Positions 1,707 to 20,300 of a stretch of 64,000 bases of DNA are shown here, one piece after another. Origin of the DNA: an uncultured bacterium (GTDB taxonomy: Bacteria; Patescibacteriota; Minisyncoccia; UBA6257; 2-01-FULL-56-20). Location of the stretch: contig OY970358.1 of NCBI GenBank assembly GCA_963718575.1, positions 98,723 through 162,722 of the forward strand, in the 5' to 3' direction. The stretch's first letter is position 1; each line of letters begins with the position of its first letter. The notes below the pieces were generated by a model. It was not told the DNA's origin and ran no database searches. It saw only the letters and a program-made list of their open reading frames with translations. Position numbers and translations under genes: made by a program.

Positions 1707-4676
1707 CTATTCCCTTAAATCGAATATCTTCTGGGCAACTAAATCGAACATTTTCTTCTCAATGTATTTTTTGAGTTCGGAATTTTCAGTCAACTGCTCC
1801 CATAGCTTTCGATCGCTCTCAAATTGATCATCCACCTTCTCGGTAAACACCCCTCCAAAATGTACCGATGCATTTTGCTTCGTATTGTTCGTGACCACGT
1901 TTTGCAACTCCTCATCCGAAGATAGCTCCTCCGTCATAGCGCCCAAAGTTTTTTGTTGCCCGACACCAAAATCAACACCCCACCGTTTATTAACGTCCTG
2001 AACGATTTTAGATAAAACATCCTCAATTTCTTGTGGGGGCGCTTCAGGAATTGGCTCGACTTGGCGCACATCTCCGGCATTGCCCTCTAAACGTATTTGC
2101 ATTTTTAGCTTTCGAACAACACGAACTGAATCAACATCCAGATAATCCAAGATTTCTATCAACGGCCGCCGAGGATCGCGCGGAAGTTTTTTAAGAAGAT
2201 ATTTGAGTAAGAGGTAAAGTTTTTCGTGAGAAATGTCTGAATAGCCAAGCACCTGCGCAATAAACGGATATCGCTTAACATAACTACTCGCGACGCTCAG
2301 GAATCTTCCATATTCATTCTCTACAACAATGCCCGAGTCATCATTTTTGTGATTTAGCAAAACAACCTTATCCGCAATTTCGTCGAGGAAGGCGTTGGCT
2401 TCTTTATGAATTTCTCTAGATTCCGGATCTAATAAGTCCGCGAACCGTTTGAGGACTTCTTCAGGAATCCGGAAAATCATAAAGAGTTCTCTGCGCAAAT
2501 CATTTAAGGAATTAATATCGGTCCCCTCCGATAAAATGGTGCTGGTATAGTAGGGCTCAAAAGACCGTTTTATATCGTCCGTCTCATTAACGAAATCGAG
2601 CACAAACACCTCATCCTTACCACGCGTAGTCCGGTTAAGTCTCGAAAGGGTTTGCACCGCCTGAACTCCAGAAAGTCTTTTGTCGACGTACATGGCACAG
2701 AGATAGGGTTCATCGAATCCGGTTTGAAATTTTTCTGCAACGATCAGAAAGCGATATTCCGGCTTTTTAAATTCTCTGGCCGTATTGTTTTCGGGGATAC
2801 CATCGTTTATAGAGGCTTCGGTATACGAAACCCCATCAATCTCTATCGTATCCGTAAAAGCCGCGAGAGTTTTATAGGGATAATTATTTTTTTGAAGATA
2901 AGCATCCAGTTCCAACTTATAGCGCACGGCAGCTTCGCGAGATGATGTGACTATCATCGCCTTCGATTCCCCGCGAAGAAGGCTGGAAATCGTGTTCTCA
3001 AAATGGCCAAGAATTACGTCTATTTTCTGCTGAAGTGCGACTTCGTGAAGATGCACATAATGCAATATCGCCGAAAGTGCGCGGCTTCGAGGAACCATAG
3101 GGTCTTGTGCCGCTTTTTTGATCAGCTTAAAGTAGGTCTTATATGTCGTGTAGTTGGTCAAAACGTCGACAATAAATCCCTCTTCAATCGCTTGACGCAT
3201 AGAATAAAGACTGAAGGGCTTAAACGATCCGTCATGCTCTTTCTCGCCAAAACGTTCCATAGTTTCATGGCGCGGTGTCGCGGTAAAAGCAAAATAGCTC
3301 AAGTTGTTCGGTTGCCTTCGACTGATGACTTGCTTTAATAGCCATCCTTCCGGGTCCTCATCGTTTCTTCCAATAACTTCGTGAACGGCACGTACTGTCT
3401 CTCCAGATTGCGAAGAATGAGCCTCATCGACAATCAAGGCAAAATGTTTTCCCGGCATGGACCCGATTGTATCTATGATATATGGAAATTTTTGTATCGT
3501 TGTCGTAATAATTTTCGCGCCTCCTTCTAAAGACTCTCTCAATTTACTGGACGTATCTTGATCGCCGACGGTGACGAGTACGCCAGGAGTTGAAGCAAAC
3601 GACCCTACCGTTTCCCTGAGTTGTTTATCCAAAATACGACGATCAGTAAGTACAAGCACCGTGTCGTAGACCTTCTTATTTTCCTCGGTGTGCAATTCTG
3701 CAAGACGATAGGCAAGCCATGCGATCGTCATGCTTTTGCCGCTCCCTGCACTATGTTGGATCAGATAATTTTTTCCGGCACCACTATGACGAGCCCCTCC
3801 CATCAAATCTTTCACTGTATGCCATTGATGATATCGTGGAAATACCTGAACCAGGACTCGATATTCCTTACCGTTTCGATCTTCTCTTACTTCAGTATAT
3901 GTGTGAACAAAAAATTGCAGCAAGTCGGACCAGTTATCGGGCGACCATGTTTCCTCCCACAAATAGTGGGTTTTATGCTTCTCTCCGGCTGGAGGGTTGC
4001 CCGCTCCATCTTTAAACCCCTTGTTAAATGGGAGGAAATAGGTCTGATCTTCTTTGAGATGAGTCGTGAGGTAAGCTTCGCTCGTATCGACGGCAAAGTG
4101 GGCTATGCATCGACGAAATGAAAAAAGTTTTTCGTCAGGATTGCGATCCGTGCGATATTGTCGCATCGCGTGATGAACATTCTGTCCCGTCAACTCATTT
4201 TTCAATTCTGCCGTCATAATAGGCAAACCATTCACAAAAACAACGAGATCGACGGACTGCTCCGTCAGGCGACTGAATTTCACTTGTCGCATAACCGACC
4301 AGATATTTTTCTTGAACAGGTCATTTATGTCGGGGTTTAATGAAGTCACTGGCCGGAAAAACATCATATGCAAGCGAACCGGGCCTTCTTCGATACCTTT
4401 CCGTAAAACATCAATCAAGCCGCGGCTTGAGATTTCAGCATCAATGCGTCGCGTCAATCTATCTTCGAGCGAGCCACCATACATATCGGTTAATTTTTCC
4501 ATTTCTTGCGGTTGGGATTTTTTCAAAAAATCAAAAATCAAACCAACATCAATGGAAAATTCTTTATTGTAGTCGGAATCTGCATCACGCATCCGATATC
4601 CATGCATGTTTGTCAAGGTATCGGCGATATAGCGCTCAAATGCCTCTTCCTTTAGATTTTTATGAATATTTGCCAT
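1707..4676 (-). CDS. hsdR: Type I restriction enzyme R subunit (HsdR), SF2 helicase/nuclease
   Basis: A 989-aa protein with Walker A (SAGSGKSMT) and a DEAH box (LIVDEAHSS), adjacent to hsdS and hsdM. The region is AT-rich compared with the flanks. Confidence 0.9.
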   Translation of the reverse strand: MANIHKNLKEEAFERYIADTLTNMHGYRMRDADSDYNKEFSIDVGLIFDFLKKSQPQEMEKLTDMYGGSLEDRLTRRIDAEISSRGLIDVLRKGIEEGPVRLHMMFFRPVTSLNPDINDLFKKNIWSVMRQVKFSRLTEQSVDLVVFVNGLPIMTAELKNELTGQNVHHAMRQYRTDRNPDEKLFSFRRCIAHFAVDTSEAYLTTHLKEDQTYFLPFNKGFKDGAGNPPAGEKHKTHYLWEETWSPDNWSDLLQFFVHTYTEVREDRNGKEYRVLVQVFPRYHQWHTVKDLMGGARHSGAGKNYLIQHSAGSGKSMTIAWLAYRLAELHTEENKKVYDTVLVLTDRRILDKQLRETVGSFASTPGVLVTVGDQDTSSKLRESLEGGAKIITTTIQKFPYIIDTIGSMPGKHFALIVDEAHSSQSGETVRAVHEVIGRNDEDPEGWLLKQVISRRQPNNLSYFAFTATPRHETMERFGEKEHDGSFKPFSLYSMRQAIEEGFIVDVLTNYTTYKTYFKLIKKAAQDPMVPRSRALSAILHYVHLHEVALQQKIDVILGHFENTISSLLRGESKAMIVTSSREAAVRYKLELDAYLQKNNYPYKTLAAFTDTIEIDGVSYTEASINDGIPENNTAREFKKPEYRFLIVAEKFQTGFDEPYLCAMYVDKRLSGVQAVQTLSRLNRTTRGKDEVFVLDFVNETDDIKRSFEPYYTSTILSEGTDINSLNDLRRELFMIFRIPEEVLKRFADLLDPESREIHKEANAFLDEIADKVVLLNHKNDDSGIVVENEYGRFLSVASSYVKRYPFIAQVLGYSDISHEKLYLLLKYLLKKLPRDPRRPLIEILDYLDVDSVRVVRKLKMQIRLEGNAGDVRQVEPIPEAPPQEIEDVLSKIVQDVNKRWGVDFGVGQQKTLGAMTEELSSDEELQNVVTNNTKQNASVHFGGVFTEKVDDQFESDRKLWEQLTENSELKKYIEKKMFDLVAQKIFDLRE

Positions 4677-4677
4677 G

Positions 4678-5913
4678 TTAGATTTTAATTTTTCCAGTCA
4701 CCGCAGCGTTAATCAGAGATGATCGATAGCTCTCAACTAATTGCCGCTGAGATTGAAATATCTCTACGGAGCGATTAATTTTCCCGCACCTCTCGTCAAG
4801 CAACTTAGCTATCGCCGTTTGTCTCGAGCGGCTCGGAACAGCTATAGGCAATGAACCCAGTCTGTATTCACCGATTCCGGGATAATTGACCCCGATTGAA
4901 TTTGCCATTACTTCGGCTAAGAAATCTTCGCTCTGGAGGGCCCAAAAAAGATAGTCACCATTGATCTGCCTTGGATGGAGGACAGCAAAACCAGTAGAAA
5001 ATACTCGGGGTCGATTTTTGTGGGTTATTTTTGCTATCGCCTTTAAATAAGTTCTCACCGTCGAAATAACCACATCCCCTTCCTCTGCCAATCGACGTGC
5101 GCGTGAAGGTGCGTCTGCAAATCTGTACAGTTGAGGGGGTTGGATTTTTCCCGTGCCATCAATATTGCCTATGTCTACATATTCGAACTCAAAATCAGGA
5201 TCGGTATTTTCAGGCAACGTTTTTTGATTTATATCAGCGATATATTTTAATTTTTTGACAGGGAATTTCTTCGAAATGTTTCGAGTTATAAGAGCGGCGC
5301 GATATTCGTTTAGCTTGTTGATTTGCAAGTTAATAAGCTCAAGGGTCTTGTCCAAAATTCTCGTACGATCTTCTAAAAAATTGCTGATTTTTTCCTGTGT
5401 GTTGATTGAAGGAACCAGGATCGGCAGATATTTCAATGCTTCGTATCCTATAGATTGGCGGACACCGCCACCCATACCATAAAATACTTTTGCGGTGTCA
5501 TAGGTATGTAATAAATAGTAAAGATAGCGAGAATCCAGTTTCTTCCTATTAACCCTTAGCCCAAGGTAGGCAGAAGTAATCATCCCCGCTTGTTTTACGA
5601 GGCCGACCCTCAAACTTTCGTGATCATTTTGTAAATCCGTCAGACGCAAGACTATATCGCCGGAATTTAGTGACTGATACGATTCGAACGACTCTGGCAA
5701 TAGGCCAAAATTTAGGTCAATGTTCCTTTGTATGATTTTCCCATAGCTCAGAGATAGAACATTCTCATTCTTGCTCGGATCGTTTTTAAGAATATTTTCA
5801 GCAGCCACCGTACGTAAAGGCAAAATCTCCCATTGATCACTGGGAATGTCCCCTACCCAAGCAATCTTGGAGGGTTTGTAATGTGTATATCCCGAATATC
5901 TTTGCCGTTTCAT
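4678..5913 (-). CDS. hsdS: Type I restriction-modification specificity subunit (HsdS), two target-recognition domains
   Basis: A 411-aa protein between hsdM and hsdR. It overlaps hsdM by 4 bp and has a bipartite TRD-like architecture. Confidence 0.75.
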   Translation of the reverse strand: MKRQRYSGYTHYKPSKIAWVGDIPSDQWEILPLRTVAAENILKNDPSKNENVLSLSYGKIIQRNIDLNFGLLPESFESYQSLNSGDIVLRLTDLQNDHESLRVGLVKQAGMITSAYLGLRVNRKKLDSRYLYYLLHTYDTAKVFYGMGGGVRQSIGYEALKYLPILVPSINTQEKISNFLEDRTRILDKTLELINLQINKLNEYRAALITRNISKKFPVKKLKYIADINQKTLPENTDPDFEFEYVDIGNIDGTGKIQPPQLYRFADAPSRARRLAEEGDVVISTVRTYLKAIAKITHKNRPRVFSTGFAVLHPRQINGDYLFWALQSEDFLAEVMANSIGVNYPGIGEYRLGSLPIAVPSRSRQTAIAKLLDERCGKINRSVEIFQSQRQLVESYRSSLINAAVTGKIKI

Positions 5914-7946
5914 ATCCCTGATTTTTTTAACAAATCACGTATTTCAACTTCACCGCTTTTTATCTCCTGCTCTATATCAGACAACTCTCTTGGATGCTCA
6001 TATTTATAAAAATATTTCGTGAACGGGATCTCGTATCCAACGATGCCCACCCGACCATCTTTTTCGTCACAGATCGAAGTATCTATCCACGCATCGGGTA
6101 CGTAAGGCTTTACTTCTCGAGTAAAATATTTGTCGATACTTTCTCCAAGCGGCACTCTTTCATAATCTTTGAGCTCATTATCTGGCTCAGAATTGCCAGC
6201 GCCATCCAAACAAACCTCCGCTCGCTCATCGCGTTTGCCGATAGTGTTTATAATCGCGTTGAGTTTTCGCTTCTGAAAAACGAGCTCAAGGTGGTCCGAT
6301 TCTTTCTTGAGTTTGGCGAGAAAATTGGGTCTATCCATAAAAACTTTTCCCTTAAGTGTCCTAACGATCTCAAATTCTGTGACGTCAAGCAAACCCTTAA
6401 GAAGTAATAAGGATTTTTCATCAACTTCAAACCTCAGCCGGAGGGGCCGCTGAATGGTAATTTCACGATAACCAAACTCGCTGACATTAAAGATTTTCGA
6501 ATATTTGCTAACTTTGAAATCACGATAGATAGTCAGTATCCGACCAATATCTTCGGTCGAAATTTCATAGCGTTTATGTCCCATATTTTTCCGCAAGGTA
6601 TGCCGGAAAGACCTTGCGTCAATAAGTTGAATTTTATCGCGCCGATCGGCGCTTTTCCGATTCGACAAGATCCATATGTAAGTGGCTATCCCCGTATTAA
6701 AAAATAATTGGTCAGGCAAAGCGACTATCGCTTTATCGAAATCATTTTCCATAATCCATCGCCTTATTTCACTTTCGCCCGATCCGGCATTGCCCGTAAA
6801 TAAAGGTGATCCGTTAAATATAACTCCGGCCACACTGCCACCTTCGGAACGCGGTTTGAATTTTGATACGATATGTTGCAGAAAAAGCAGTTGGCCGTCC
6901 GATATTCTGGGCAGTCCCGCTCCAAAACGCCCAGCAGATCCGCGTTCATGTTCGCGCTCAACCACTTCTTGGTCTTTTTTCCACTCTACGCCGTAGGGTG
7001 GGTTACAAATGACGTAGTCAAACTTCTTATCTGCATGCTGATCATTGGATAAGGTGCTTGCCTTGTCGTGCTCCCTGTCGCCACCCTTGATGTCATCAGC
7101 ATTTTCCCCCTTTAGTAACATATCCGCCTTACAAATTGCATAAGTTGCAGCGTTGAGCTCTTGGCCGAATAAATGAATCTTCGCATCTTTATTAAACTGA
7201 GTTTGAATATAATCTTTGCCGGTCGTAAGCATGCCGCCAGTTCCACAGGCCGGATCATACAACAACTTCACAATGCCAGGCTTCGATAGTTCTTTTTCTT
7301 CCCCGGCAAAAATCAGAGCCGTCATCAAACGCACAACGTCTCTCGGCGTATAGTGCTCTCCGGCGGTTTCGTTCGACTGTTCGGCAAACCGCCGAATCAG
7401 GTCCTCGAAAGCGAGGCCGATAACATGATTCGGCACCCGATCAGGGTGCAAATCGACCTTCTCGAATTCTTGCAGCACAAGATAGAGAATATTACTGCCC
7501 TCTAATCGTTCAAGCTGTTTTTCGAAATCAAATTTTTCTATAATTTCTTTGACATTATCCGAGAAGCCGTCGATATATCGACGAAGATTGCGAGCGATAT
7601 GTGCCGGATCTTCTAAGAGCTTCTTAAACGTGAACGGCGATATATTATAAAAATCGTAGCCGCTTGCGCGCCGTAGGATACGAAGGTTATGCACTTTCCC
7701 ATCCAGCTCGTTGAACTTTTCAAGAACCTTCTGTTTCGTTGGTTCAAGAGCGGCGTCCAATCTCTTGAGCACAGTCAGCGGCAGAATGACGTCTTGATAC
7801 TCGTGCGCTTTCCACGATCCGCGGAGGTGGTTGGCGATATTCCAGATTGTGTTCGAAATTTTACGATAGTTTTCTTCCATGAGGAAATCTTCAATCTGGA
7901 AACGGTTTATTAAATCTTTATTAAATTGTAGGTTCTTTGCCTTCAT
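5910..7946 (-). CDS. hsdM: Type I restriction-modification N6-adenine DNA methyltransferase (HsdM)
   Basis: Has an AdoMet motif (LYDPACGTGGML) and the catalytic NPPY motif (ICNPPYG), and spans 678 aa. Confidence 0.9.
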   Translation of the reverse strand: MKAKNLQFNKDLINRFQIEDFLMEENYRKISNTIWNIANHLRGSWKAHEYQDVILPLTVLKRLDAALEPTKQKVLEKFNELDGKVHNLRILRRASGYDFYNISPFTFKKLLEDPAHIARNLRRYIDGFSDNVKEIIEKFDFEKQLERLEGSNILYLVLQEFEKVDLHPDRVPNHVIGLAFEDLIRRFAEQSNETAGEHYTPRDVVRLMTALIFAGEEKELSKPGIVKLLYDPACGTGGMLTTGKDYIQTQFNKDAKIHLFGQELNAATYAICKADMLLKGENADDIKGGDREHDKASTLSNDQHADKKFDYVICNPPYGVEWKKDQEVVEREHERGSAGRFGAGLPRISDGQLLFLQHIVSKFKPRSEGGSVAGVIFNGSPLFTGNAGSGESEIRRWIMENDFDKAIVALPDQLFFNTGIATYIWILSNRKSADRRDKIQLIDARSFRHTLRKNMGHKRYEISTEDIGRILTIYRDFKVSKYSKIFNVSEFGYREITIQRPLRLRFEVDEKSLLLLKGLLDVTEFEIVRTLKGKVFMDRPNFLAKLKKESDHLELVFQKRKLNAIINTIGKRDERAEVCLDGAGNSEPDNELKDYERVPLGESIDKYFTREVKPYVPDAWIDTSICDEKDGRVGIVGYEIPFTKYFYKYEHPRELSDIEQEIKSGEVEIRDLLKKSGI

Positions 7947-9292
7947 TTTTCAATGATTTCTGACGCCGCCGCCAATCGCACCACCTTATCCTTGAATACC
8001 AGCCTACTCTTGAGGCACGCCAGCACTTCCCGTTTCTCTGTCACGGTACCCTCGGCAAGGAGATACTTCACGTAGTTCTTGATGTCGACCTCATCCATTT
8101 CGACTCGTTCCGGATTCGTTCCAAGGACGCTTCGCTGGAATTTGCGGAATCGCCCGACCTCTTCATCGAATTTGTGCTTGACGCCCAGCTCGTTCACGTC
8201 GATCTGATCGATGATGACGAGGAGCTGGCGGATGAGCTCATCCTCACGGATGTATCCGGCTTGGCACTTATGGTCGCGCGATCGTGTGCAGCCGTAGTAA
8301 ACGTACCGATGAGTGTTTCCATTTTTGAACTCCTTGAGTCTTTCATTCGCTGTGACGCCCGATCCACAGAGACCACACGCAATGAGCCGCGTGAAGGCAA
8401 ATTCCTTAGCTTCTCTGGCCATCTCTTTACGCTTCAACTGCGCGTTCGCTTTTTCAAAGAGTTCACGCGTTACAAGCGGCTCGTGCTTTCCCGTATAGAA
8501 ATTGCCGCTTTCTTTCGGATATTCGAGGATGCCGTAATAGAAGTGGTTTTGGATGATGAGATACACGTTGCCAAGCGTGAGATGATGATTATTTTTTGTT
8601 CTGAAATTCAGATCAAATTTGAGCCAATGGAATACCTTCATACCGCTCCATCCCTCATAGGCGAACTTCTCGAAGATCTGCTTGATGACGGGAGAGCGTT
8701 CCGGATCGACGAGAACTTGGCATTTGCGATCGCTCCTCTTTTCGTTGAGATAACCCGTCGGCGCGTGGCCGGGCCAAAGTCCCATCTCAAGTCGTGTTCG
8801 CAAGCCTCTTTTTACGTTGATCGATTTTTGATCATTTTCTAATTTTGCCTGCGAACACAGAATCATGAGCAGAAACTTCTCATTCGGATTATTCGTGAAT
8901 CGCTGGCTAAAGGTTCGTATCTCGGTGAGAAGTTTTTGATCCATGAGATCGACGAGCGATCCGAGATCTCCTGCGTTTCTGCTTAATCGATCCGGTGCCC
9001 ACGTAAGGATGCCAGTGTATCGCCCGCTCCGGATGTCCTTGAGGATCTCAGCAAAGACTGGGCGTTGGCCTGAGTCTTTCGCGGAATGTGACTCCCGCCT
9101 GATGTCCACGATCTGCAATCCCTCACGCTCGGCGAGCTGCAACATTTCTCGCACCTGACTATCGATACTCAAAACTTGTCGCTCTTCGCTCTCTGTACTT
9201 TTTCTCGCATAGAGGCAATACTTGACCTTTTCTGGGAGCGGCTGTGTCGTCGGGGTCCCCGCTGCCACGGACGCCATAGTTTGGTTTGTCAT
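7943..9292 (-). CDS. Large serine recombinase (resolvase catalytic domain + recombinase domain + zinc ribbon), LSR1
   Basis: The N-terminus (YCLYARKSTESEERQ..SIDSQ) carries the catalytic Ser/Arg motifs, and there is a C-terminal CxxC...C. Its stop overlaps the hsdM start (ATGA). Confidence 0.85.
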   Translation of the reverse strand: MTNQTMASVAAGTPTTQPLPEKVKYCLYARKSTESEERQVLSIDSQVREMLQLAEREGLQIVDIRRESHSAKDSGQRPVFAEILKDIRSGRYTGILTWAPDRLSRNAGDLGSLVDLMDQKLLTEIRTFSQRFTNNPNEKFLLMILCSQAKLENDQKSINVKRGLRTRLEMGLWPGHAPTGYLNEKRSDRKCQVLVDPERSPVIKQIFEKFAYEGWSGMKVFHWLKFDLNFRTKNNHHLTLGNVYLIIQNHFYYGILEYPKESGNFYTGKHEPLVTRELFEKANAQLKRKEMAREAKEFAFTRLIACGLCGSGVTANERLKEFKNGNTHRYVYYGCTRSRDHKCQAGYIREDELIRQLLVIIDQIDVNELGVKHKFDEEVGRFRKFQRSVLGTNPERVEMDEVDIKNYVKYLLAEGTVTEKREVLACLKSRLVFKDKVVRLAAASEIIEK

Positions 9293-9377
9293 AACTCAAA
9301 GGGGCCGCAACGGCACCCAGAAGTCCAGCCCCTCGAAAGCCTTGCAAAAGGCCCTTTAAAAGCTCTACAATCTCCCC

Positions 9378-10136
9378 ATGAATCCGGCGAATCTTCCCGC
9401 CCTCTATAACCTCATGGTGTCGCTAGTGCCTCCGGCAGTACTACTCGCAGTGCTCGCCTACTTCGTGCGCTTCTTTGGAAGAGTCATCGTTGATCAGAAA
9501 CCTTTTTGCGACGACCGCGATTGGGAGATAGAAGTCGCGGGAACTTTCTTCCTTCTCCTGCTTATAATTCTTCCGGCAGTACTCGGCGCGGTCGCGGCGT
9601 CATCGTGGGGCGGCCTCGGCACCGGCCATTGGATGCGTCTCGTTATCGTTCTCCTATTGATGTCTTGGCTTTTCATGATCAACGGCATTTTGGCCGAAAA
9701 ATTCTATGCGATAAAACTCCCTTTGGTCAATTTTTTCTTTATGTTTATTCCCCAAAAAGATCACGAAGCGCTCAAGAAGGACATGCTCACCTTCAATCGC
9801 TTTCTGCCGCTCTACGTTTTTTCCTTCATTTTCGCGTATATTTTCTCGCTGGAATACCATTCTGGAAGCGTTGCCTGGATTATCGTAACGGGAATCTTGC
9901 TTTTTATCAGCTTCATCCTCATGGCGCTCGATTTTTCGCTTCTCAAGGAACGACTGCCGCAAGTTGATATTCTTTTCATAGACAAAGATGAACCACCGAT
10001 CCGGGACGTGGCCCTTCTAAAAATAAATCAAGATAATGTGCGCATTATGGAAAAAGAGACAAAGCAGGTGATCATACTCAATAAAAGCCAGATCCGACGA
10101 ATAGAATATTTTCCACCGAAGGAATTGCAGGGATAA
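9378..10136 (+). CDS. polytopic membrane protein, hypothetical
   Basis: A 252-aa protein with 6 or more hydrophobic helices. It sits between two serine recombinases, upstream of a nuclease gene. Confidence 0.5.
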   Translation: MNPANLPALYNLMVSLVPPAVLLAVLAYFVRFFGRVIVDQKPFCDDRDWEIEVAGTFFLLLLIILPAVLGAVAASSWGGLGTGHWMRLVIVLLLMSWLFMINGILAEKFYAIKLPLVNFFFMFIPQKDHEALKKDMLTFNRFLPLYVFSFIFAYIFSLEYHSGSVAWIIVTGILLFISFILMALDFSLLKERLPQVDILFIDKDEPPIRDVALLKINQDNVRIMEKETKQVIILNKSQIRRIEYFPPKELQG

Positions 10137-10459
10137 TAAAAAAGAACAGCTCAGTCGGCTATTCTTTTGTTTCTCTCTTCCGAAATTACGATTCGATAAT
10201 TTTGTCCGCAGCCTTCTCAATTTTCCGTTCGCGCCACGCCCGTAGAATCGCCCCCGCGATGATGAGAGCGAAGATGGTGAGCGGTACTCCGCCGAAGATC
10301 AAGAGAATAATGATTGTTTCCATACGACACTGTTTTTTTGATATGCGACCTTTCACAACAATCAATGCCGCAATGGCGGGGCAAGTCCAGCGCCAAAAAG
10401 CATTGTCAAAACGGCCCAAAGCGTGATACCTTTGTAAGTAATTGAATATAAGATTGATC

Positions 10460-10610
10460 GCCTAAACCGCGCCTTCGCGTGGCATGGCATTACGCAGAAT
10501 CTCCCTTCCAGATACCAAACGCCACGTTTGGCGACTTCTGGAAGGGAGTCACTCCGAAAGGAGTGGGGCCGCAAGGCCTAAGCCAGCGTGGCGTTTTGTG
10601 TTCTGCAAAA
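10460..10610. promoter_or_regulatory. Highly structured non-coding element: ~48-bp imperfect palindrome (10501-10548), GAAA-tetraloop hairpin (10550-10565) and further inverted copies of AAACGCCACG
   Basis: Half-site ctcccttccaga...tctggaagggag surrounds ccaaacg-cca-cgtttgg. This segment lies inside the spurious 5' extension of ORF 10484. It is a candidate att site for the flanking serine recombinases, or an RNA leader. Confidence 0.45.
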
Positions 10611-10627
10611 CCCACGCCATCATTCCA

Positions 10628-11539
10628 ATGGCGATATATTCCATAGAAAACCATGCAGCAAAAAAAATCCCGGCCGTGAAGGTCGGGCTTGAGAAGGACG
10701 TGCAGAAAATATTCGAGAAAAACCTCGAGGAGATTTTAGACATCACATTCCTCGCGTCCGAATATCGGACGAGCTTCGGCGGCCGGATGGACACGCTCGG
10801 CATCGATCACAACGGCTCCCCAGTCATCATCGAATACAAACGCGGTCAGAACGATAGCGTCATCAACCAAGGCCTCTCGTATCTCCGATGGCTTTTAGAT
10901 CATAAGGCTGACTTCGAGGCGCTCACGCATCGTGCCAATATTGCGACCGCCATCGATTGGGCATCGCCGCGCGTGATCTGCGTTGCCGAGAGCTACAACA
11001 AATTCGATCTCGACACGGCCGATCTTCTGCCGATGGATATTGAGCTACTCCGTTACCGGATATATGAAAATAATATCCTCCTTGTTGAACCCGAGGTGCA
11101 ACGCAAGGTGAAAATATCAACGTCGGATATTTTCGAGAAGGCGGAGAAGCCTAAGGGCGAGTTCAGGGAAAAAATCCGACACAGCGTCGATGATCATCTG
11201 AAAACAGCGAGCCCGCAGACCCGTGAGCTTTTCGCCGCCGTCAGAGAAAAGATAACCGCCCTCGATGAATCCATTATCGAGGAATCAAAGGCAAAATACA
11301 TTGCCTATAAGCTGACGACGAACTTCGTGGACATCGTCGTCTACAAGGACTCGCTCAAGCTATTTTTGAATGTGCCGAGCGGCACGCTGATCGATTCCTC
11401 CGTGATCGCCCGAGATCTCACGAAGCCCAAGGCGATCGGCCACTGGGGCAACGGCGACTATGAAGTGAAGCTCGAACGCAACGAAGATATGGATGCCGTA
11501 ATGGGTTTGATTAAGCAGAGCTACGAATATAACAAATAA
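10628..11539 (+). CDS. PD-(D/E)xK (NucS/DUF91-like) nuclease domain protein with a C-terminal DUF5655-like domain
   Basis: Motif GGRMDTLGIDHNGSPVIIEYKRG (D..E.K). I place the real start at MAIYSIENH (10628) rather than the ORF-track start, because the upstream 48 codons are palindromic non-coding DNA. Confidence 0.6.
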   Translation: MAIYSIENHAAKKIPAVKVGLEKDVQKIFEKNLEEILDITFLASEYRTSFGGRMDTLGIDHNGSPVIIEYKRGQNDSVINQGLSYLRWLLDHKADFEALTHRANIATAIDWASPRVICVAESYNKFDLDTADLLPMDIELLRYRIYENNILLVEPEVQRKVKISTSDIFEKAEKPKGEFREKIRHSVDDHLKTASPQTRELFAAVREKITALDESIIEESKAKYIAYKLTTNFVDIVVYKDSLKLFLNVPSGTLIDSSVIARDLTKPKAIGHWGNGDYEVKLERNEDMDAVMGLIKQSYEYNK

Positions 11540-11550
11540 GTTTTTCGAGC

Positions 11551-12975
11551 ATGGCGAAAACCCGATCGGCCACGACGCAGGAAAATATCGCAGTTCGCTA
11601 CTGTCTCTATGCCCGTAAGTCGATGGAAGACGAGGAACGCCAAGCGCTTTCCATAGATTCGCAGCTTAACGAGATGCGGAAAATAGCGGAACGTGACGGT
11701 CTTATGGTTGCCATTGAAAAAATCGAATCGCATTCGGCCAAGGATTCCGGAACGCGTAAGGTGTTCAACCAGATGATCGGCGAGATCAAGGAAGGAAAGT
11801 ACAACGCGATCCTCACATGGAATCCCGACCGCTTGAGCCGTAACGCGGGAGACCTGGGTAAGCTCGTCGATCTCATGGATCAGCAACGGCTCTTCGAGAT
11901 TCGGACGTTCAACCAAAAATTCTCGAACACCCCTAACGAAAAGTTTCTGCTGATGATTTTGTGCAGTCAGGCGAAACTGGAAAACGACAACAAGCGCGAC
12001 AACGTCCAACGCGGCCTCCGGGCGCGGGCGCAAATGGGACTCTTCCCGACCTCGACTCCGATCGGCTATCTCACGTCGAACGACCGGAACCGGCCCTGCG
12101 AAAAGGACATCGATCCCGTGCGCGCGCCCGTCGTGAGGGAAATGTTCGAGAAGGTCGCCTACGAGCGTTACTCGTGCCATGACGTGCTCCGGTGGCTCGA
12201 GAAAATAAATTTCCGTTCGCCGAACAACAAGCTGGTGAGCCTGAGCACCGTGCAGAACATCCTGCGACGCACCTTTTATTACGGCCAGTACGAGTATCCG
12301 AGAGGCAGCGGAACGTGGTATCAAGGCATTCATACACCGATCGTCACGAAGGAATTGTTCGAACGCGCGCAGGAACAAATGGAACATTACAATCACGGCC
12401 ACGCGAAGGGGCGTAAGTCGACTCCGGAGTCGTTCGCCTTCCTCCGGCTCATCCGTTGCGGCAACTGCGGCGCGGGCATCACGGGTTCCGATACGTACAA
12501 GCATTTGAAAAACGGTAAGGTGCTCTTCTACCGCTATTACGCCTGCACGCAAGGCAAGAGCCGTTGGTGCCGGGAGCCCAGCATTAACGAAGTTGATCTC
12601 ATAGCGCAGCTTCTCGAAATGTTCGACCAGCTCGACATCGATCTCATAGGGACGAGGGCCCAGCTCGAGGCGGAGATCGAGAAATGGTACCGCATCGACG
12701 CCTTTGTGAGCGGCCAGCCCGTTCCGGAGCGGTCGCGGGAACGGAAGGAAATGGATTTGCGCGGATACGCGAAGGCGATATTCGAGGACGGGAGCGTCGA
12801 AGAACGAAGGGCGATGCTCCAGCATCTTAAGAGCCGCCTCATCCTCAAGGACAAGCACGTTTATCTCGACACCCTTCCGGCGGAAATAGCGGCAAAGGTT
12901 CCGCAGCCGCCCGAAGACGTGGAGAAAGATCCTCGGCTTGTGATCCGGCGCGGGCGGCGATTGCCGAAGGCATAA
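11551..12975 (+). CDS. Large serine recombinase, LSR2 (paralog of LSR1)
   Basis: YCLYARKSMEDEERQALSIDSQ... is about 60% identical to LSR1 over the catalytic and recombinase domains. A CxxC zinc ribbon (CGNCGAG) is present. The protein is 474 aa. Confidence 0.85.
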   Translation: MAKTRSATTQENIAVRYCLYARKSMEDEERQALSIDSQLNEMRKIAERDGLMVAIEKIESHSAKDSGTRKVFNQMIGEIKEGKYNAILTWNPDRLSRNAGDLGKLVDLMDQQRLFEIRTFNQKFSNTPNEKFLLMILCSQAKLENDNKRDNVQRGLRARAQMGLFPTSTPIGYLTSNDRNRPCEKDIDPVRAPVVREMFEKVAYERYSCHDVLRWLEKINFRSPNNKLVSLSTVQNILRRTFYYGQYEYPRGSGTWYQGIHTPIVTKELFERAQEQMEHYNHGHAKGRKSTPESFAFLRLIRCGNCGAGITGSDTYKHLKNGKVLFYRYYACTQGKSRWCREPSINEVDLIAQLLEMFDQLDIDLIGTRAQLEAEIEKWYRIDAFVSGQPVPERSRERKEMDLRGYAKAIFEDGSVEERRAMLQHLKSRLILKDKHVYLDTLPAEIAAKVPQPPEDVEKDPRLVIRRGRRLPKA

Positions 12976-12983
12976 ACAAGATC

Positions 12984-13658
12984 ATGGTATCCGACGAACG
13001 CATAAAAGAATTTAAGGTGATCCTCGAAAAAGAACGGGGCCTGGAGGTGACGTGGGAAGAAGCTGAGAAAGGCGCTTACCAGCTTGATGCACTCGCCAAC
13101 TTTATGTTCGACACGTGGCTCGAGGACGAGCGAAGAAAAAAGAAGCTGAAAGAATCCCCGAAAGGATTCTGCCTTGATGGTGTCGGCTATAGCTGCTTCA
13201 TCTGCGGCGACGGAACACCAAAAGATGGTAATTGGTACGACAAGTACGGCATCAAGTGCCTCGTCTGCCAGAAAGCCATCGACAAGAAAATAATTCCCGC
13301 GATGGCGGCAAAGCATCGGGACAGCTGGTATTCAAAATATGATTTGGAAAGCCGTTTCAACATCAAGTACCACGCGTTGAACCGTTTTATGAAGATGGGC
13401 GTCCTGAAGCCACGCATCGTTCCCGACGAGTCCGGCAGACCCCACTGCTATCTCTTTCTTATTAAAGATCAGAAAGACATACTGCCGCCGAAAAAACTGA
13501 CCGAATCAAAAATGGTGAGAGAAGTTAAGGACGGGAAAGAATATTTCCGTTCGTTGCCGTGGTACCGCTTCGTTGATCCATGGGAAGCGCTTAAAGGTTA
13601 TAAGATTATGGACCACATGCGTCCTAAACAGGAAGCCGAGATCGCTACCACTCCTTGA
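12984..13658 (+). CDS. hypothetical protein with CxxC...CxxC zinc-ribbon (possible RDF/regulator)
   Basis: CFICGD...CLVCQ motif. It starts 8 bp after the LSR2 stop. Function unknown. Confidence 0.4.
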   Translation: MVSDERIKEFKVILEKERGLEVTWEEAEKGAYQLDALANFMFDTWLEDERRKKKLKESPKGFCLDGVGYSCFICGDGTPKDGNWYDKYGIKCLVCQKAIDKKIIPAMAAKHRDSWYSKYDLESRFNIKYHALNRFMKMGVLKPRIVPDESGRPHCYLFLIKDQKDILPPKKLTESKMVREVKDGKEYFRSLPWYRFVDPWEALKGYKIMDHMRPKQEAEIATTP

Positions 13659-14112
13659 CGACGATCTCGCCTTTTTCGTAAGACACCCAAACCATCTTTG
13701 ATCCTTTTGGTTCAACATCTTTCAACGCCTCCGGAAGTTTTTCCAGCATTGTTTTAGTGTCGGATTCGTCCATTGGCAAGACGACGGTGACCTTCTCATA
13801 TTTTATGATGCGCTCGATTCTGGCATCCGGCTTTTTCTTTTTCAAATAATCCCAAAGCTTCGTTAGAGATTTTGTAAATGCTCCCCATAAAAGACCGTCG
13901 CGCAACCATCCCCAGAGACTGAAATCCGTGAAGATTAGTTTTATAACCTCGTATACTTCCGGCAGGCCGCTTTTTTCTATATATTGAAAAACTTCGGCGT
14001 CGAATTCCTGGTCATGAAAGATCTGGGCAACCTCTTCGCGCTCTTCGTCGGTAAGGCCCTTAATACTGATCTCTATTCGATTATTTTTTGGGACGGAATC
14101 CATTTCACTCAT
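13645..14112 (-). CDS. hypothetical protein (translationally coupled to the upstream DUF2779 nuclease gene)
   Basis: The start MSEMDSVP overlaps the DUF2779 stop (ATGA). The protein is acidic and I recognise no domains. Confidence 0.4.
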   Translation of the reverse strand: MSEMDSVPKNNRIEISIKGLTDEEREEVAQIFHDQEFDAEVFQYIEKSGLPEVYEVIKLIFTDFSLWGWLRDGLLWGAFTKSLTKLWDYLKKKKPDARIERIIKYEKVTVVLPMDESDTKTMLEKLPEALKDVEPKGSKMVWVSYEKGEIVVKEW

Positions 14113-15566
14113 TTTATTTCTTTTTCTAAATTCTCCAAAATCCGCACCATTGCCATCGTATCGAGACCACAATACGTAAGCATGTCGCTTTTGATTTTCT
14201 CTCTCTCGGCCAGAGGCGTTTTTGAATCAATAAGTCGCGGCCAAGTCACCGAAGCGGTTCCACCTTCCTGAATGGCAAGTTCCTTGTAGGACAGCTCGGG
14301 CACCATGACCGGGAGAACGGCCTTGATGGACGCGCTGCCGTGAAATCCCGCATCAACATATAACTTCTTCTTGAATATGACCATGAGATCATAAACGCGG
14401 CCGTTCACCGCGTCCATGAACTCCGCATATTCGGGATAGTATTGCCCTATCTCCTTATTCCTCGGCACCTCAAATGAGGCGTACCACACGATGACGGTCC
14501 CCTTCGTGCCGATATCTTTTTCGAGCTGCGCGACCATCGCCGGTATGGGATTTTCGTCCTTCTCTGCCAGAAATTCTTTTTGCTCGACTTTGGCATCAGG
14601 CGCTTTCTTCATATGCAGCGAATATTGAAACACAATCTTCTGCCACGGGCGCGTGCCGTCGAAGGGCGGTATGGGCGATGCGAACGTCTCATAGTCCAAG
14701 AAATAGATCGGGTACACGAGCGTCGCAAGCTCTTTCTTTATCACCGCAGCGTCCACTGTTTTTGCTACGGGTTTGTATCCGAGACCCCGGAGAAAGACCG
14801 GAGAGAACGAATTACCATCGAGTACTCCTTTCTGCAACAAGCTGAGGACGAATGCTGTCGGCCAATTCTTAACGTCTAGCTTTTTTGTTGGAGCTTGAGA
14901 AAGATAGGTCTCCAAATACTCGCACGAGCCGGTCTTTGAATTGCAAGAAAGGATGACGCGATTCTCTGGGTAATCTTTGATGGCGAGGATAACACGTGCG
15001 TCGGCTATACCTTCTTTGACCTCGGGTATCAGTTCACGTGCCTCTTCTGTGACGTCTTCGGTAATAAAAAGCTTTGCGAGTTCGATGTCCCCCTTTCGGA
15101 CATATTCGTTGTTCACGTGGATCAAATATGTCTTCCCCACTTTGATGCCTGCTTCTTCAAAACAAATGAGCTGGAACGCGACGTCGTGGAGATCTTCCGG
15201 CCGAACTTTGGTTGCACTCTTCACTTCGCGAATGTCGTAGACATCTGCCGTTGGGTCATAAGTCACGATGTCCGCGCGGCACGTAAGGCCGCTCTTCGTA
15301 ATGACGGTCGGCTGGAAAATAACCTTGGTCTTTTTGTCGAAGAGTTCCTTACTCTTGCGCCAACCCTCTTCGCCAAACTCAAAAGGCTCTACGCCATCTT
15401 TGAAGAGCTTCTTCGCGAGCGCATCCACCTTTTCGCCTTCCTGTTCATGAAAGAGTCCTGACGCCGAATGAGGCGGCATAAGATGTTTGCCCTTTCGTTC
15501 CATCCAAAGATAGCAGCCGCATTCCAGATAATTCTTATAATCGGTTTTGGTGAATAGTTCGGCCAT
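14109..15566 (-). CDS. Dual nuclease: N-terminal Cas4/RecB-like PD-(D/E)xK domain with Cys cluster plus C-terminal DUF2779 (RNase H-fold exonuclease-like)
   Basis: Has N-terminal cysteines (ECGCYLW... CNSKTGSCEY), a D..EVK motif (YDIREVKSATK), and the DUF2779 hallmark YFLDYETF...QYSLH. Confidence 0.6.
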   Translation of the reverse strand: MAELFTKTDYKNYLECGCYLWMERKGKHLMPPHSASGLFHEQEGEKVDALAKKLFKDGVEPFEFGEEGWRKSKELFDKKTKVIFQPTVITKSGLTCRADIVTYDPTADVYDIREVKSATKVRPEDLHDVAFQLICFEEAGIKVGKTYLIHVNNEYVRKGDIELAKLFITEDVTEEARELIPEVKEGIADARVILAIKDYPENRVILSCNSKTGSCEYLETYLSQAPTKKLDVKNWPTAFVLSLLQKGVLDGNSFSPVFLRGLGYKPVAKTVDAAVIKKELATLVYPIYFLDYETFASPIPPFDGTRPWQKIVFQYSLHMKKAPDAKVEQKEFLAEKDENPIPAMVAQLEKDIGTKGTVIVWYASFEVPRNKEIGQYYPEYAEFMDAVNGRVYDLMVIFKKKLYVDAGFHGSASIKAVLPVMVPELSYKELAIQEGGTASVTWPRLIDSKTPLAEREKIKSDMLTYCGLDTMAMVRILENLEKEIK

Positions 15567-15567
15567 T

Positions 15568-15792
15568 TCAATTAAAATTCTTCATTAATGTCGCTACTTT
15601 TTCACCTGCGTATTTCAAAATTTCCGGCGCACACTCCTTACAATAATTTTTCGATCCGAGACTATTCCTTTCGCGAATTAATAGGTGCGATTCTCCGGCC
15701 TGTATCTTGTGCTTTTTGGTCCTATGACACTTCCGCGACTTAATTGCCGTATCAATAGAAACATGAACGAGGATGTCCCTAGTTTGCGCCAT
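15568..15792 (-). CDS. small zinc-finger protein, hypothetical
   Basis: A 74-aa protein with KCHRTKKH...YCKEC. It overlaps the helicase stop by 14 bp. Confidence 0.3.
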   Translation of the reverse strand: MAQTRDILVHVSIDTAIKSRKCHRTKKHKIQAGESHLLIRERNSLGSKNYCKECAPEILKYAGEKVATLMKNFN

Positions 15793-19410: not shown

Positions 19411-19418
19411 GACGTTCG

Positions 19419-20224: not shown

Positions 20225-20300
20225 CTGTCCATTATTTTATATACCAATCCACCCCCCGATTTCTATTCCAAAATATGCCATCAGATGATACAGTTTAGGC

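What the first reader, a model, noticed from the sequence alone, without database searches (positions are those of the whole stretch)
7943..12975. Two paralogous large serine recombinases in divergent orientation (a CcrAB-like pair, or two abutting integrative elements)
LSR1 and LSR2 share about 60% identity across the catalytic and recombinase domains. They are 2.2 kb apart, each pointing into a different cargo block (the RM system versus the phage-like module). This could be two independent elements integrated side by side at a hotspot. It could also be a cooperating recombinase pair as in SCC elements.
Basis: inference. Interest (0 to 1): 0.5.

Follow-up and report, generated by a model that had tools for sequence, protein, structure and literature searches.

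The report
Two serine recombinases flanking LOOT RNA
Two real, related but separate large serine recombinase genes sit back-to-back around a small structured RNA gene (LOOT) in a roughly 21-kb defence island of an uncultured Patescibacteria genome. They look like two separately acquired integrase modules rather than a cooperating CcrAB-like pair.

Summary
LSR1 (7943-9292, -) and LSR2 (11551-12975, +) are complete large serine recombinases, divergent, with starts 2258 bp apart. They are 50% identical overall and 58% over the catalytic and recombinase domains.

Both belong to one very large LSR family found almost only in Patescibacteria (CPR). More than 100 foreign proteins are closer to LSR1 (63-90%) than LSR2 is. 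A tree puts the two in separate clades.

Of 161 related loci, 150 carry one LSR, so a CcrAB-like obligate pair is not supported.

LOOT is physically linked to this LSR family, with a strict orientation rule in 26 of 80 genome loci.
- LSR1 shows the family-typical layout: a conserved leader motif and a divergent LOOT.
- LSR2 belongs to a small clade fixed in a LOOT, DUF5655 (PADLOC PDC-S18), LSR operon.

Close relatives keep LSR1, LOOT, DUF5655, LSR2 and TerL but swap the cargo in three slots.

Best reading: a mosaic defence and phage-remnant island next to tRNA-Gln, built from two LSR modules at a LOOT hub. No att sites were identified.

The parts
1707..7946 (-). Type I restriction-modification operon: hsdR 1707-4676, hsdS 4678-5913, hsdM 5910-7946. 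It is cargo lying directly downstream of LSR1.
   Evidence: Pfam and PADLOC REase_I, Specificity_I and MTase_I, the last at E 2e-257. GC is 0.42-0.44 against 0.54 for the surrounding genome. The closest relatives carry different cargo here: N6_N4 methyltransferases in L100, Dcm and Vsr in L086.
7943..9292 (-). LSR1: a large serine recombinase of the main Patescibacteria clade.
   Evidence: Three LSR domains. phrog_95 integrase, E 3e-63. Ser32 aligns with Ser22 in the YLRRS motif of SPbeta SprA/YokA. Homologs at 90%, 88% and 71% identity, plus more than 100 at 63-70%.
9289..9352 (.). Leader motif copy A, immediately upstream of the LSR1 start codon. It is a candidate recombinase-binding or regulatory site.
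   Evidence: An nhmmer profile built from 26 family loci matches here. The same motif lies directly upstream of the LSR in 62 of about 85 loci. This stretch is conserved at 81% in L100 up to position 9352.
9353..10345 (.). Variable 993-bp segment holding ORF252 (9378-10136, +; predicted membrane protein) and a small ORF on the - strand (10186 to about 10323).
   Evidence: It has no homology to the 350-bp segment at the same place in L100. It is flanked by direct repeats A and B: alignment score 51, against 17.9 +/- 3.4 (maximum 33) in shuffles.
10346..10404 (.). Leader motif copy B, in direct orientation relative to copy A. It carries a vestigial start codon (CAT changed to CAC) and lies just upstream of the LOOT promoter.
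   Evidence: nhmmer E 0.012, repeat alignment, and 86.5% conservation in L100.
10459..10579 (+). LOOT small RNA gene (Rfam RF03000). A sigma-70-like promoter lies upstream, and a hairpin follows at about 10584-10619.
   Evidence: 54.9 bits against a gathering score of 46.4. In 54 family instances 91% of cells are paired, with 671 double-change cells against 193 in shuffles. The promoter and hairpin were read from the sequence.
10628..11539 (+). Gene for a DUF5655 / PD-(D/E)xK-like protein (PADLOC PDC-S18, a candidate defence gene). The likely true start is ATG 10628, not 10484.
   Evidence: Pfam DUF5655, E 7.5e-13. PADLOC PDC-S18, E 1e-94. Homologs at 75-84% identity occur only in L086, L091 and L092, always between LOOT and an LSR2-clade gene.
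11551..12975 (+). LSR2: a large serine recombinase of a small sister clade, placed in an operon after LOOT and DUF5655.
   Evidence: Three LSR domains. It belongs to a 16-leaf clade that excludes LSR1. It has no leader motif; only 11 bp separate it from the DUF5655 stop.
12984..13658 (+). ORF224, conserved together with LSR2 in L088.
   Evidence: 81% DNA identity up to position 13612. No Pfam, PHROGs or PADLOC match.
13645..17866 (-). Variable cargo slot: a 175-aa ORF, a DUF2779 Cas4-like nuclease (14109-15566), a 74-aa ORF, and a MerR-HTH helicase (15779-17866).
   Evidence: Pfam and PADLOC matches to Cas4, PbeA, mREase_IV and mad1. L088 has Peptidase_M78/HTH and ThiF genes in this slot instead.
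17941..19985 (-). Large terminase (17941-19410), preceded by a 188-aa ORF (19419-19985). This is a phage-derived backbone module.
   Evidence: phrog_38, E 1e-62. 70% DNA identity to L088. TerL homologs are present in 63 of 174 family loci.

Best explanation
**What it is.** LSR1 and LSR2 are two intact large serine recombinases from different sub-lineages of one Patescibacteria-wide LSR family. They lie in a mosaic island of about 21 kb that holds defence genes and phage remnants. The island abuts a tRNA-Gln gene just left of the window and ends near 20.3 kb.

**Two modules joined at the LOOT RNA gene.**
- Module 1 is the family-typical unit: LSR1, its conserved leader motif, and a divergently transcribed LOOT. 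In this genome a type I RM operon is fused downstream of LSR1.
- Module 2 is a compact unit of about 2.5 kb: LOOT promoter, LOOT, DUF5655/PDC-S18, LSR2. It recurs in different genomic contexts.

**How it most likely works (inferred, not shown).** Each enzyme acts on its own att sites. It carries out conservative integration and excision of DNA segments around the LOOT hub. This would account for the cargo replacement seen between relatives. The island would then have grown by accretion of LSR-borne modules, not through a heteromeric two-recombinase machine.

**Shown versus inferred.** Shown: gene identity, family membership, LOOT linkage, the modular conservation pattern, and the rarity of pairs. 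Inferred: recombinase activity, independent action, and which sites are used.
For: **Both genes look functional.** Both have the complete three-domain LSR architecture. The serine in their YARKS motif aligns with Ser22 in the YLRRS motif of SprA.

**The DNA-binding parts have diverged.** Identity is 39-44% in the recombinase and zinc-ribbon parts, against 69% in the catalytic domain. This is expected for enzymes with different site preferences.

**They belong to a huge family, in separate clades.**
- More than 8000 hits each. 543 genome loci were confirmed as encoding a relative, and the 80 kept are almost all titled as Patescibacteria-lineage MAGs.
- LSR1 is 63-90% identical to many foreign proteins but only 50% to LSR2.
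- In the NJ tree LSR2 sits in a 16-leaf clade and LSR1 in another. Their common ancestor spans 177 of 230 leaves.

**Pairs are rare.** 150 loci have one LSR, 10 have two and 1 has three.

**LOOT is linked to the LSR with a fixed polarity**:
- In 7 loci LOOT starts within about 100 nt after the LSR stop, on the same strand.
- In 19 loci LOOT lies upstream and divergent.
- LSR1 obeys this rule; LSR2 does not.

**Each module has its own signature.**
- The leader motif precedes main-clade LSRs in 62 loci, including the LSR1-like genes of L086, L090 and L006. It does not precede LSR2-clade genes.
- The LOOT, DUF5655, LSR2-clade order is conserved in the window, L086, L091 and L092, with different flanks on both sides.

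**Relatives keep the backbone and swap the cargo.**
- L100 and L088 come from the same sample and carry 90% and 84% homologs. They keep LSR1, LOOT, DUF5655, LSR2, ORF224 and TerL but replace three cargo slots.
- L101 (71% LSR1 homolog) has different cargo against the same host flank of tRNA-Gln-like sequence, SodFe, fmt and def.
- In L086 the LSR2 homolog is close to LSR2 but the partner LSR is not close to LSR1.
Against: - No att site was identified for either enzyme, and no empty site or circular junction was recovered.
- LSR1 and LSR2 are each 6-8 kb from the island ends. Neither sits at an element terminus as integrases usually do.
- In the three closest lineages (window, L100+L088, L086), and in an analogous locus L116, a main-clade LSR lies on the 5' side of LOOT and a second LSR on the 3' side. 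This could mean that a two-LSR backbone is itself the inherited unit.
- For L091 and L092 the 5' side of LOOT holds 9 kb or more of cargo up to the end of the fetched DNA. A distant partner LSR cannot be excluded there.
- The adjacency of L100 and L088 is inferred from two contigs that both end inside DUF5655.
Confidence: 0.55

Rival explanations
1. One composite element has a two-LSR backbone and a division of labour. One recombinase, perhaps LSR2, moves the whole island. The other, LSR1 with its leader site next to LOOT, captures or exchanges cargo segments.
For: - LSR1, LOOT, DUF5655, LSR2 and TerL are co-conserved at 70-90% in L100 and L088 while the cargo differs.
- The same layout, LSR then LOOT then x then LSR, is seen in L086 and, with a different second-LSR lineage, in L116.
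- Direct repeats of the LSR1 leader motif flank a swapped segment in both the window and L100.
Against: - 150 of 161 loci manage with one LSR.
- L091 and L092 show the LSR2 module with no second LSR within 10 kb.
- The partner LSRs do not co-diverge in L086.
- No terminal att sites were found.
Confidence: 0.25
2. The LSR, its leader with the GTTGGTAAC 9-mer, and LOOT form a serine-recombinase docking platform, functionally like an integron. Integrase-less cargo circles, mostly defence genes, would be inserted there. The window would hold such a platform (LSR1) next to a second one.
For: - The 9-mer (one mismatch or fewer) sits upstream of the LSR start in most loci. Approximate distance read from the hit coordinates: 60-150 nt.
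- Where cargo separates LOOT from the LSR, a second copy in the same orientation lies 61-114 nt upstream of LOOT, mostly 90-106 nt, in 11 of 25 loci. Binomial P = 3e-14.
- L066 has three copies delimiting two segments.
- The cargo in this position is RM and other defence genes.
- Where LOOT follows the LSR directly, no 9-mer copy lies upstream of LOOT. The 9-mer is therefore not simply a LOOT promoter element.
Against: - Long site duplications are significant only in the window and L100.
- 9-mer variants do not match within a locus in L065, L085 and L007.
- The window's own copies do not contain GTTGGTAAC.
- A shared operator for divergent promoters would explain much of the pattern.
- RNAalifold found no consensus structure in the leader, and no recombination product was observed.
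Confidence: 0.15
3. A CcrAB-like pair: two LSRs that must act together, as a heteromeric complex or on the two different ends, to move one element.
For: There are two paralogous LSRs in one island. The pairing recurs in the closest relatives.
Against: - The genes are divergent, not a co-oriented adjacent operon.
- Single-LSR loci predominate.
- The two fall in separate clades without co-divergence.
- Other double-LSR loci have other geometries: convergent in L006, L090 and L141, and a tandem triple in L030.
Confidence: 0.03
4. One or both enzymes are domesticated invertases or resolvases that switch expression (phase variation) of LOOT, the RM operon or DUF5655, rather than moving DNA between replicons.
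For: - LSR1 appears translationally coupled to hsdM (ATGA overlap).
- One source annotates family members as 'DNA invertase Pin-like'.
- The gene order around LOOT differs between loci.
Against: - No inverted repeats bracket a promoter or hsdS.
- Copies A and B are direct, not inverted.
- The same contig sequence is found in several samples with no inverted variant.
- These are three-domain LSRs, not small invertases.
Confidence: 0.05

Closest known systems
SPbeta prophage integrase SprA (YokA), and the A118 and TP901-1 serine integrases
   Same: They share the three-domain architecture: catalytic N-terminal domain, recombinase domain and zinc ribbon. The serine in the query's YARKS motif aligns with Ser22 in SprA's YLRRS motif. 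The SprA alignment covers residues 28-379 of LSR1.
   Different: The relationship is only distant (E 1e-11 to 1e-10; A118 and TP901-1 at 1e-5 to 1e-7). The window proteins belong to a Patescibacteria-specific family with an unusually conserved catalytic domain and the motif YARKSxExEERQxLSIDSQ. No recombination directionality factor or att sites are known for it.
CcrA/CcrB of staphylococcal SCC elements
   Same: Two paralogous large serine recombinases on one genomic island that carries accessory cargo.
   Different: By established knowledge, ccrA and ccrB are adjacent, co-oriented and always found together. Here the genes are divergent and in separate operons, usually occur singly, and do not co-diverge.
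Accretion of integrative elements at one hotspot (tandem islands, CIME-type composites)
   Same: Several integrase-bearing modules lie side by side at one chromosomal locus next to a tRNA gene. The cargo is mosaic and differs between close relatives.
   Different: Classical accretion gives co-oriented integrases and repeated att sites at module borders. Here the LSRs are divergent. Only one pair of direct repeats (copies A and B) was found, and it flanks a 1-kb segment rather than a whole module.
Phage satellites with defence hotspots and a regulatory small RNA (P4-like elements, PICIs)
   Same: An integrase together with packaging genes (TerL; ParB-methylase and a small-terminase-like gene in sister loci). 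There are no capsid or tail genes. Defence cargo is variable and a small RNA gene lies next to the integrase.
   Different: The integrase is a serine recombinase rather than a tyrosine recombinase. The host is Patescibacteria. No helper phage, replication module or regulatory role for LOOT has been shown. This resemblance rests on recalled knowledge and was not tested.
Integrons
   Same: A recombinase gene has a conserved site just upstream. Variable cargo is inserted on that side, and short conserved sequences repeat at the cargo borders in some loci.
   Different: There is no IntI tyrosine recombinase and no attC-type folded sites. The cargo consists of multi-gene operons with their own promoters. 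The evidence for insertion at the site is indirect.

Membership tests
Large serine recombinase (LSR) | N-terminal resolvase-type catalytic domain with the nucleophilic serine | tested here: met
   PF00239 at E 6e-20 (LSR1) and 1e-20 (LSR2). Ser32 of LSR1, in its YARKS motif, aligns with Ser22 in SprA's YLRRS motif. LSR2 has the same YARKS motif.
Large serine recombinase (LSR) | Recombinase domain (PF07508) followed by a zinc ribbon (PF13408) | tested here: met
   Both proteins score above the curated cut-offs for both domains.
Large serine recombinase (LSR) | Coiled-coil motif within the zinc-ribbon domain; defined attP and attB sites; recombination activity | not testable with these tools
   No structure was predicted. 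No att sites were identified. Activity needs an experiment.
CcrAB-type recombinase pair (SCC) | Two LSR genes adjacent and co-oriented in one operon | tested here: not met
   The genes are divergent and 2258 bp apart. Three genes and an RNA gene lie between them.
CcrAB-type recombinase pair (SCC) | The two paralogs consistently co-occur and co-evolve across elements | tested here: not met
   150 of 161 loci carry a single LSR. In L086 the partner's distance to LSR1 is 0.30, against 0.16 between LSR2 and its homolog.
CcrAB-type recombinase pair (SCC) | Both proteins are required for excision and integration | not testable with these tools
   This needs a recombination assay.
LOOT RNA (Rfam RF03000) | Score at or above the Rfam gathering threshold over the full model | tested here: met
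   54.9 bits against 46.4, covering model positions 1-121 of 121.
LOOT RNA (Rfam RF03000) | Helices supported by compensatory changes | tested here: met
   In 54 sequences 91.3% of cells are paired, 38 of 40 pairs show double changes, and the covariation score is 0.83 against 0.20 in shuffles and 0.13 or less with slid partners. The alignment was fitted to the model, which favours the structure somewhat.
Type I restriction-modification system | HsdR, HsdM and HsdS genes in one operon | tested here: met
   Pfam and PADLOC REase_I, MTase_I and Specificity_I.
Complete prophage | Structural genes (portal, capsid, tail) and lysis genes in addition to terminase and integrase | tested here: not met
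   Only TerL and a helicase match PHROGs among the island ORFs scanned. In sister loci Pfam shows that housekeeping or defence genes follow directly after LOOT.
Integron | IntI tyrosine recombinase with attI, and cassettes bounded by attC | tested here: not met
   The recombinase is a serine enzyme. No consensus folded site was found in the leader. Only a functional analogy remains open.

The most novel reading that the evidence does not exclude
The conserved trio of LSR gene, upstream leader site (with the GTTGGTAAC 9-mer in most relatives) and LOOT RNA could be a Patescibacteria-specific platform for capturing and exchanging cargo, run by a serine recombinase. It would be a functional analogue of an integron, or a satellite defence hotspot. 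LOOT would be a dedicated RNA component, acting as regulator or cofactor. The window would then show two such recombinase units sharing one LOOT.
Probability: 0.15. Interest if true: 0.85.

Novelty: new variant of a known kind. Interest (0 to 1): 0.5.

Why it matters
Taken alone, two integrase genes in one genomic island are ordinary.

The context is what adds value. This LSR family is very large (thousands of proteins, at least 543 species-level genomes) and is found almost only in Patescibacteria. It is physically coupled to LOOT, an RNA of unknown function, and to a conserved leader site. It also marks islands in which restriction and other defence systems are exchanged between close relatives.

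If the coupling is functional, three things follow:
- LOOT would get its first genomic context.
- There would be a route by which these reduced-genome bacteria acquire defence genes.
- There would be a new, compact and highly conserved group of LSRs with predictable sites, of possible use for genome engineering.

The library searches found no paper describing this. That is absence of evidence within this library only.

Tried and rejected
- **Repeats.** I searched for direct and inverted repeats in 1-24000. Only short, chance-level matches appeared.
I aligned the LSR1 upstream region against 900-1720 and 19986-20900 and read 19960-20920. The only match is a 16-of-18 stretch inside promoter-like sequence, so I rejected it.
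- **Repeats at the cargo slot between ORF224 and TerL**, in the window and in L088. None scored above the shuffles.
- **An empty site.** I looked up both flanking proteins. Every contig found carries the island or ends within or beside it.
- **Contig ends clustered inside DUF5655** (10536, 10953, 10956, and 10985 twice; L100 and L088 also end there). I considered these a possible recombination junction. I rejected that as the simplest reading. The 30-mer at 10956-10985 is unique in the window. It encodes part of a segment (DWASPRVICVA) that is identical in all four DUF5655 homologs. Sharing between co-occurring strains would therefore explain the assembly breaks.
- **LOOT as a leader or guide for a fixed partner gene.** The gene 3' of LOOT is highly variable across 49 loci, so I rejected this.
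- **An RNA structure in the LSR leader.** RNAalifold predicted no pairs.
- **Long site duplications flanking cargo as a general rule.** They are significant only in the window and L100.
- **Weinberg 2017.** LOOT appears only in supplements that are not held in the library.
- **A wider sample of LSR2-clade loci.** The metagenome scan returned mostly main-clade loci.


Full report
**1. Checking the observation**

ORF listing shows 7943..9292 (-, 449 aa) and 11551..12975 (+, 474 aa). Both proteins have the full large-serine-recombinase domain set: Resolvase, Recombinase and Zn_ribbon_recom, all above the curated cut-offs. LSR1 also matches the PHROGs integrase family phrog_95 at E 3e-63.

BLASTP gives 50% identity over 426 residues, E 3e-151. 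Split by domain, identity is 68.6% in the catalytic domain, 43.6% in the recombinase domain and 38.9% in the zinc-ribbon and C-terminal part. Over residues 23-292 it is 57.8%.

The genes are divergent and their starts are 2258 bp apart. LSR1's stop overlaps the hsdM start (ATGA) and is followed by hsdS and hsdR. LSR2 is followed by ORF224 and then by convergent genes ending in a large terminase (phrog_38, E 1e-62).

Ser32 of LSR1 sits in a YARKS motif and aligns with Ser22 in the YLRRS motif of SPbeta SprA. LSR2 has the same YARKS motif.

**2. What lies between the two genes**

Rfam finds a LOOT RNA (RF03000) at 10459-10579 (+). It scores 54.9 bits against a gathering score of 46.4 and covers the full model.

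The ORF listed as 10484..11539 overlaps LOOT. Its probable true start is the in-frame ATG at 10628, which gives a 303-aa protein (sequence read). All three homologs are called at 302-303 aa. This protein carries DUF5655 and matches the PADLOC defence candidate PDC-S18 at E 1e-94.

LSR2 starts 11 bp after its stop. The + strand unit is therefore: LOOT promoter, LOOT, DUF5655, LSR2, ORF224.

**3. The family**

Each LSR has more than 8000 database hits.

A scan of one genome per species confirmed 543 stretches encoding a relative. The 80 loci kept are almost all titled as MAGs of Patescibacteria lineages such as Paceibacteria, Saccharibacteria, Parcubacteria and Moranbacteria.

- LSR1 has homologs at 90%, 88% and 71%, and more than 100 at 63-70%.
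- LSR2 has a small set at 61-84% and is otherwise about 50% identical to everything, including LSR1.

A neighbour-joining tree of 230 sequences places LSR2 in a 16-leaf clade with P0002-P0011 and the LSRs of L086, L088, L090, L091 and L092. LSR1 sits elsewhere, with L100/P0122/P0123 and L101/P0124. Their last common node spans 177 of the 230 leaves. The two are old paralogs at family level, not a local duplication.

The closest solved structures are only distant: SprA at E 1e-11, then A118 and TP901-1.

**4. Co-occurrence**

Within 10 kb either side of the LSR, 72 of 80 genome loci hold one family member. Over all 161 loci with an LSR ORF, 150 have one, 10 have two and one has three.

Double loci have varied geometry:
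- convergent and abutting (L006, L141)
- convergent and 4 kb apart (L090)
- a tandem triple (L030)
- divergent around LOOT (window, L086, L116)

For the LSR2 clade:
- L086 (79%) repeats the window's layout with other cargo.
- L100 and L088 come from one sample and carry 90% and 84% homologs. They very probably repeat the layout too, although they are two contigs that both end inside DUF5655.
- L091 and L092 (61-63%) show no second LSR within 10 kb.
- In L086 the LSR2 homolog is close to LSR2 (distance 0.16), but the partner is no closer to LSR1 than an average family member (0.30).

This is not the pattern of an obligate, co-evolving pair.

**5. LOOT is linked to the LSR family**

I built a covariance model from the window copy and refined it once. 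It finds LOOT in 26 of the 80 genome loci, in three more LSR2-clade loci plus L090, and in 25 of 71 metagenome and viral loci, one of them a duplicate locus.

In the genome set the polarity is strict. In seven loci LOOT starts within about 100 nt after the LSR stop, on the same strand. In nineteen it lies upstream on the opposite strand. In both cases the 5' end of LOOT faces the LSR gene. Distances, read from the hit coordinates, run from about 100-230 nt upstream of the LSR to about 10 kb.

LSR1 follows this rule: LOOT is divergent and 1167 bp from its start. LSR2 does not. LSR2-clade genes are always downstream of LOOT on the same strand.

The 54 instances give 91% paired cells and 671 double-change cells against 193 in shuffles. 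LOOT is therefore a real structured RNA. Each copy has its own promoter-like sequence upstream (read). The gene 3' of LOOT is highly variable: exported SNase-like nucleases, NucS/PD-(D/E)xK nucleases, small membrane proteins and methylases. LOOT is thus not tied to one partner gene.

**6. A conserved leader motif**

Read antisense to the LSR, most loci show this order: the start codon, then AATGACGCAAC, a short covarying inverted repeat around GGAGTCCAG, and finally GTTGGTAAC. An nhmmer profile finds this leader directly upstream of the LSR in 62 of about 85 loci. These include the LSR1-like genes of L086, L090 and L006, but no LSR2-clade gene. RNAalifold predicts no consensus RNA structure for it. 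A DNA site (recombinase site or operator) therefore seems at least as likely as an RNA element.

The 9-mer also recurs 61-114 nt upstream of LOOT, mostly 90-106 nt, in 11 of 25 loci where cargo separates LOOT from the LSR (P = 3e-14). It is absent upstream of LOOT where LOOT directly follows the LSR.

The window has two direct copies of the leader:
- Copy A, 9289-9352, next to LSR1.
- Copy B, 10346-10404, next to the LOOT promoter.

Their alignment scores 51 against 17.9 +/- 3.4 in shuffles. Neither copy contains the GTTGGTAAC 9-mer. The 993 bp between them has no homology to the 350 bp at the same place in L100, while both copies are conserved there. This is the only place in the window where a repeat pair brackets a swapped segment. 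Comparable long duplications are not general in the family.

**7. The island and its cargo**

Clustering the neighbours of the 80 genome loci shows recurrent partners:
- a ParB-N/methyltransferase, a small HTH protein and a large terminase
- type I RM in about 15 loci
- type III RM, C5 methylases and reverse transcriptases

TerL homologs occur in 63 of 174 loci. None of the ORFs scanned matched capsid, portal or tail families. In L039, housekeeping genes (IspH, IspG) follow about 1.2 kb after LOOT.

In the window the cargo is:
- type I RM, at GC 0.42-0.44 against 0.54 for the genome
- PDC-S18
- a Cas4-like DUF2779 nuclease
- a MerR-HTH helicase resembling PbeA and type IV restriction enzymes

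On the left, contigs carrying the same flank continue through a 206-aa gene and an HMA/MauE gene to tRNA-Gln, SodFe, fmt and def. L101 has an LSR 71% identical to LSR1 and entirely different cargo, yet it ends at the same SodFe-fmt-def flank, with a tRNA-Gln-like sequence before it. The island therefore starts about 640 bp left of window position 1 and runs to roughly 20.3 kb.

**8. Interpretation**

The evidence fits a mosaic island assembled from LSR-borne modules around a LOOT hub. LSR1 is the ordinary family integrase. LSR2 belongs to a rarer lineage fixed behind LOOT and DUF5655. The stronger divergence of the DNA-binding domains suggests different site preferences.

I rate independent action of the two enzymes as most likely (0.55). 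A two-LSR backbone with division of labour is the main rival (0.25), because the closest relatives keep both genes.

A cassette-docking role for the LSR, leader and LOOT region is the most novel reading not excluded (0.15). This reading overlaps the first two rather than excluding them, so the confidences listed in this report are not meant to add to one.

A CcrAB-like obligate pair (0.03) and a phase-variation invertase role (0.05) are poorly supported.

None of the recombination steps is shown. No att site, empty site or circular junction was recovered.

**9. Literature**

Full-text searches found no paper linking Patescibacteria or CPR with serine-recombinase islands, and none on LOOT function. 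LOOT appears only as a structure example in PMC7657543. Its original description is in supplements of PMC5737381 that are not held in the library.

Noticed in passing
window 10459-10579 (+): A LOOT RNA (Rfam RF03000) lies between the two LSR genes. It is physically linked to this LSR family with a strict polarity, in 26 of 80 genome loci and 25 of 71 metagenome and viral loci.
   Followed up: yes
window 9289-9352 and 10346-10404: Two direct copies of about 60-80 nt of the conserved LSR leader motif flank a 993-bp segment. That segment is replaced by 350 bp of unrelated sequence in the closest relative, L100. Copy B has a vestigial LSR start codon (CAT changed to CAC).
   Followed up: yes
loci L006-L190; for example L072 at 2221 and 9901, L066 at 4596, 6925 and 8604: The 9-mer GTTGGTAAC (one mismatch or fewer) sits at a fixed distance upstream of most family LSR genes. 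When cargo separates LOOT from the LSR, it also sits 61-114 nt upstream of LOOT, mostly 90-106 nt. It is sometimes present as two copies 11 bp apart. The window's copies A and B lack this 9-mer.
   Followed up: partly
window 10628-11539 (+): The DUF5655 protein matches the PADLOC defence candidate PDC-S18 (E 1e-94). It is more conserved between lineages (75-84%) than the LSR2 that follows it (61-79%).
   Followed up: partly
window 10536-11295: Contigs from at least five independent assemblies end inside the DUF5655 gene, at 10536, 10953, 10956 and 10985 (twice). L100 and L088 end at the equivalents of 10773 and 11295. The 30-mer at 10956-10985 is unique in the window and encodes part of a segment invariant in all four homologs. 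This probably reflects sharing between co-occurring strains, but a population-level junction is not excluded.
   Followed up: partly
L094 11609-11681 (about 640-710 bp left of window position 1): The island abuts the 3' end of a tRNA-Gln(ttg) gene, followed by SodFe, fmt and def. L101 has different cargo against the same flank. ARAGORN did not call the tRNA-like sequence in L101.
   Followed up: partly
window 1707-7946: The type I RM operon has a much lower GC (0.42-0.44) than LSR1 (0.505) or the genome (0.54), although the hsdM start overlaps the LSR1 stop. This suggests recently acquired cargo fused to the recombinase gene.
   Followed up: no
window 17941-19985; loci such as L010, L039, L045, L057, L073: A large terminase, with a ParB-N/methylase and a small HTH protein in sister loci, recurs next to the LSR in 63 of 174 loci. 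No capsid, portal or tail genes accompany it. This resembles a phage satellite or a remnant.
   Followed up: partly
L030 6143-14767: Three family LSR genes lie in tandem, about 3.5 kb apart, each with its own leader motif.
   Followed up: no
L116 2356-11359; L128 8693-11299: The order LOOT, then a downstream gene, then an LSR on one strand also occurs with LSRs outside the LSR2 clade. L116 also has a divergent main-clade LSR on the other side of LOOT, an independent analogue of the window's layout.
   Followed up: partly
window 10584-10619: An imperfect hairpin (GCGTGGCGTTTTG ... CAAAACCCACGC) lies directly after LOOT and before the DUF5655 start. It has no U-tract.
   Followed up: no
window 54001-55000: A sharp local drop in GC (0.379 against about 0.54) with strongly negative GC skew. 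It lies far from the finding.
   Followed up: no
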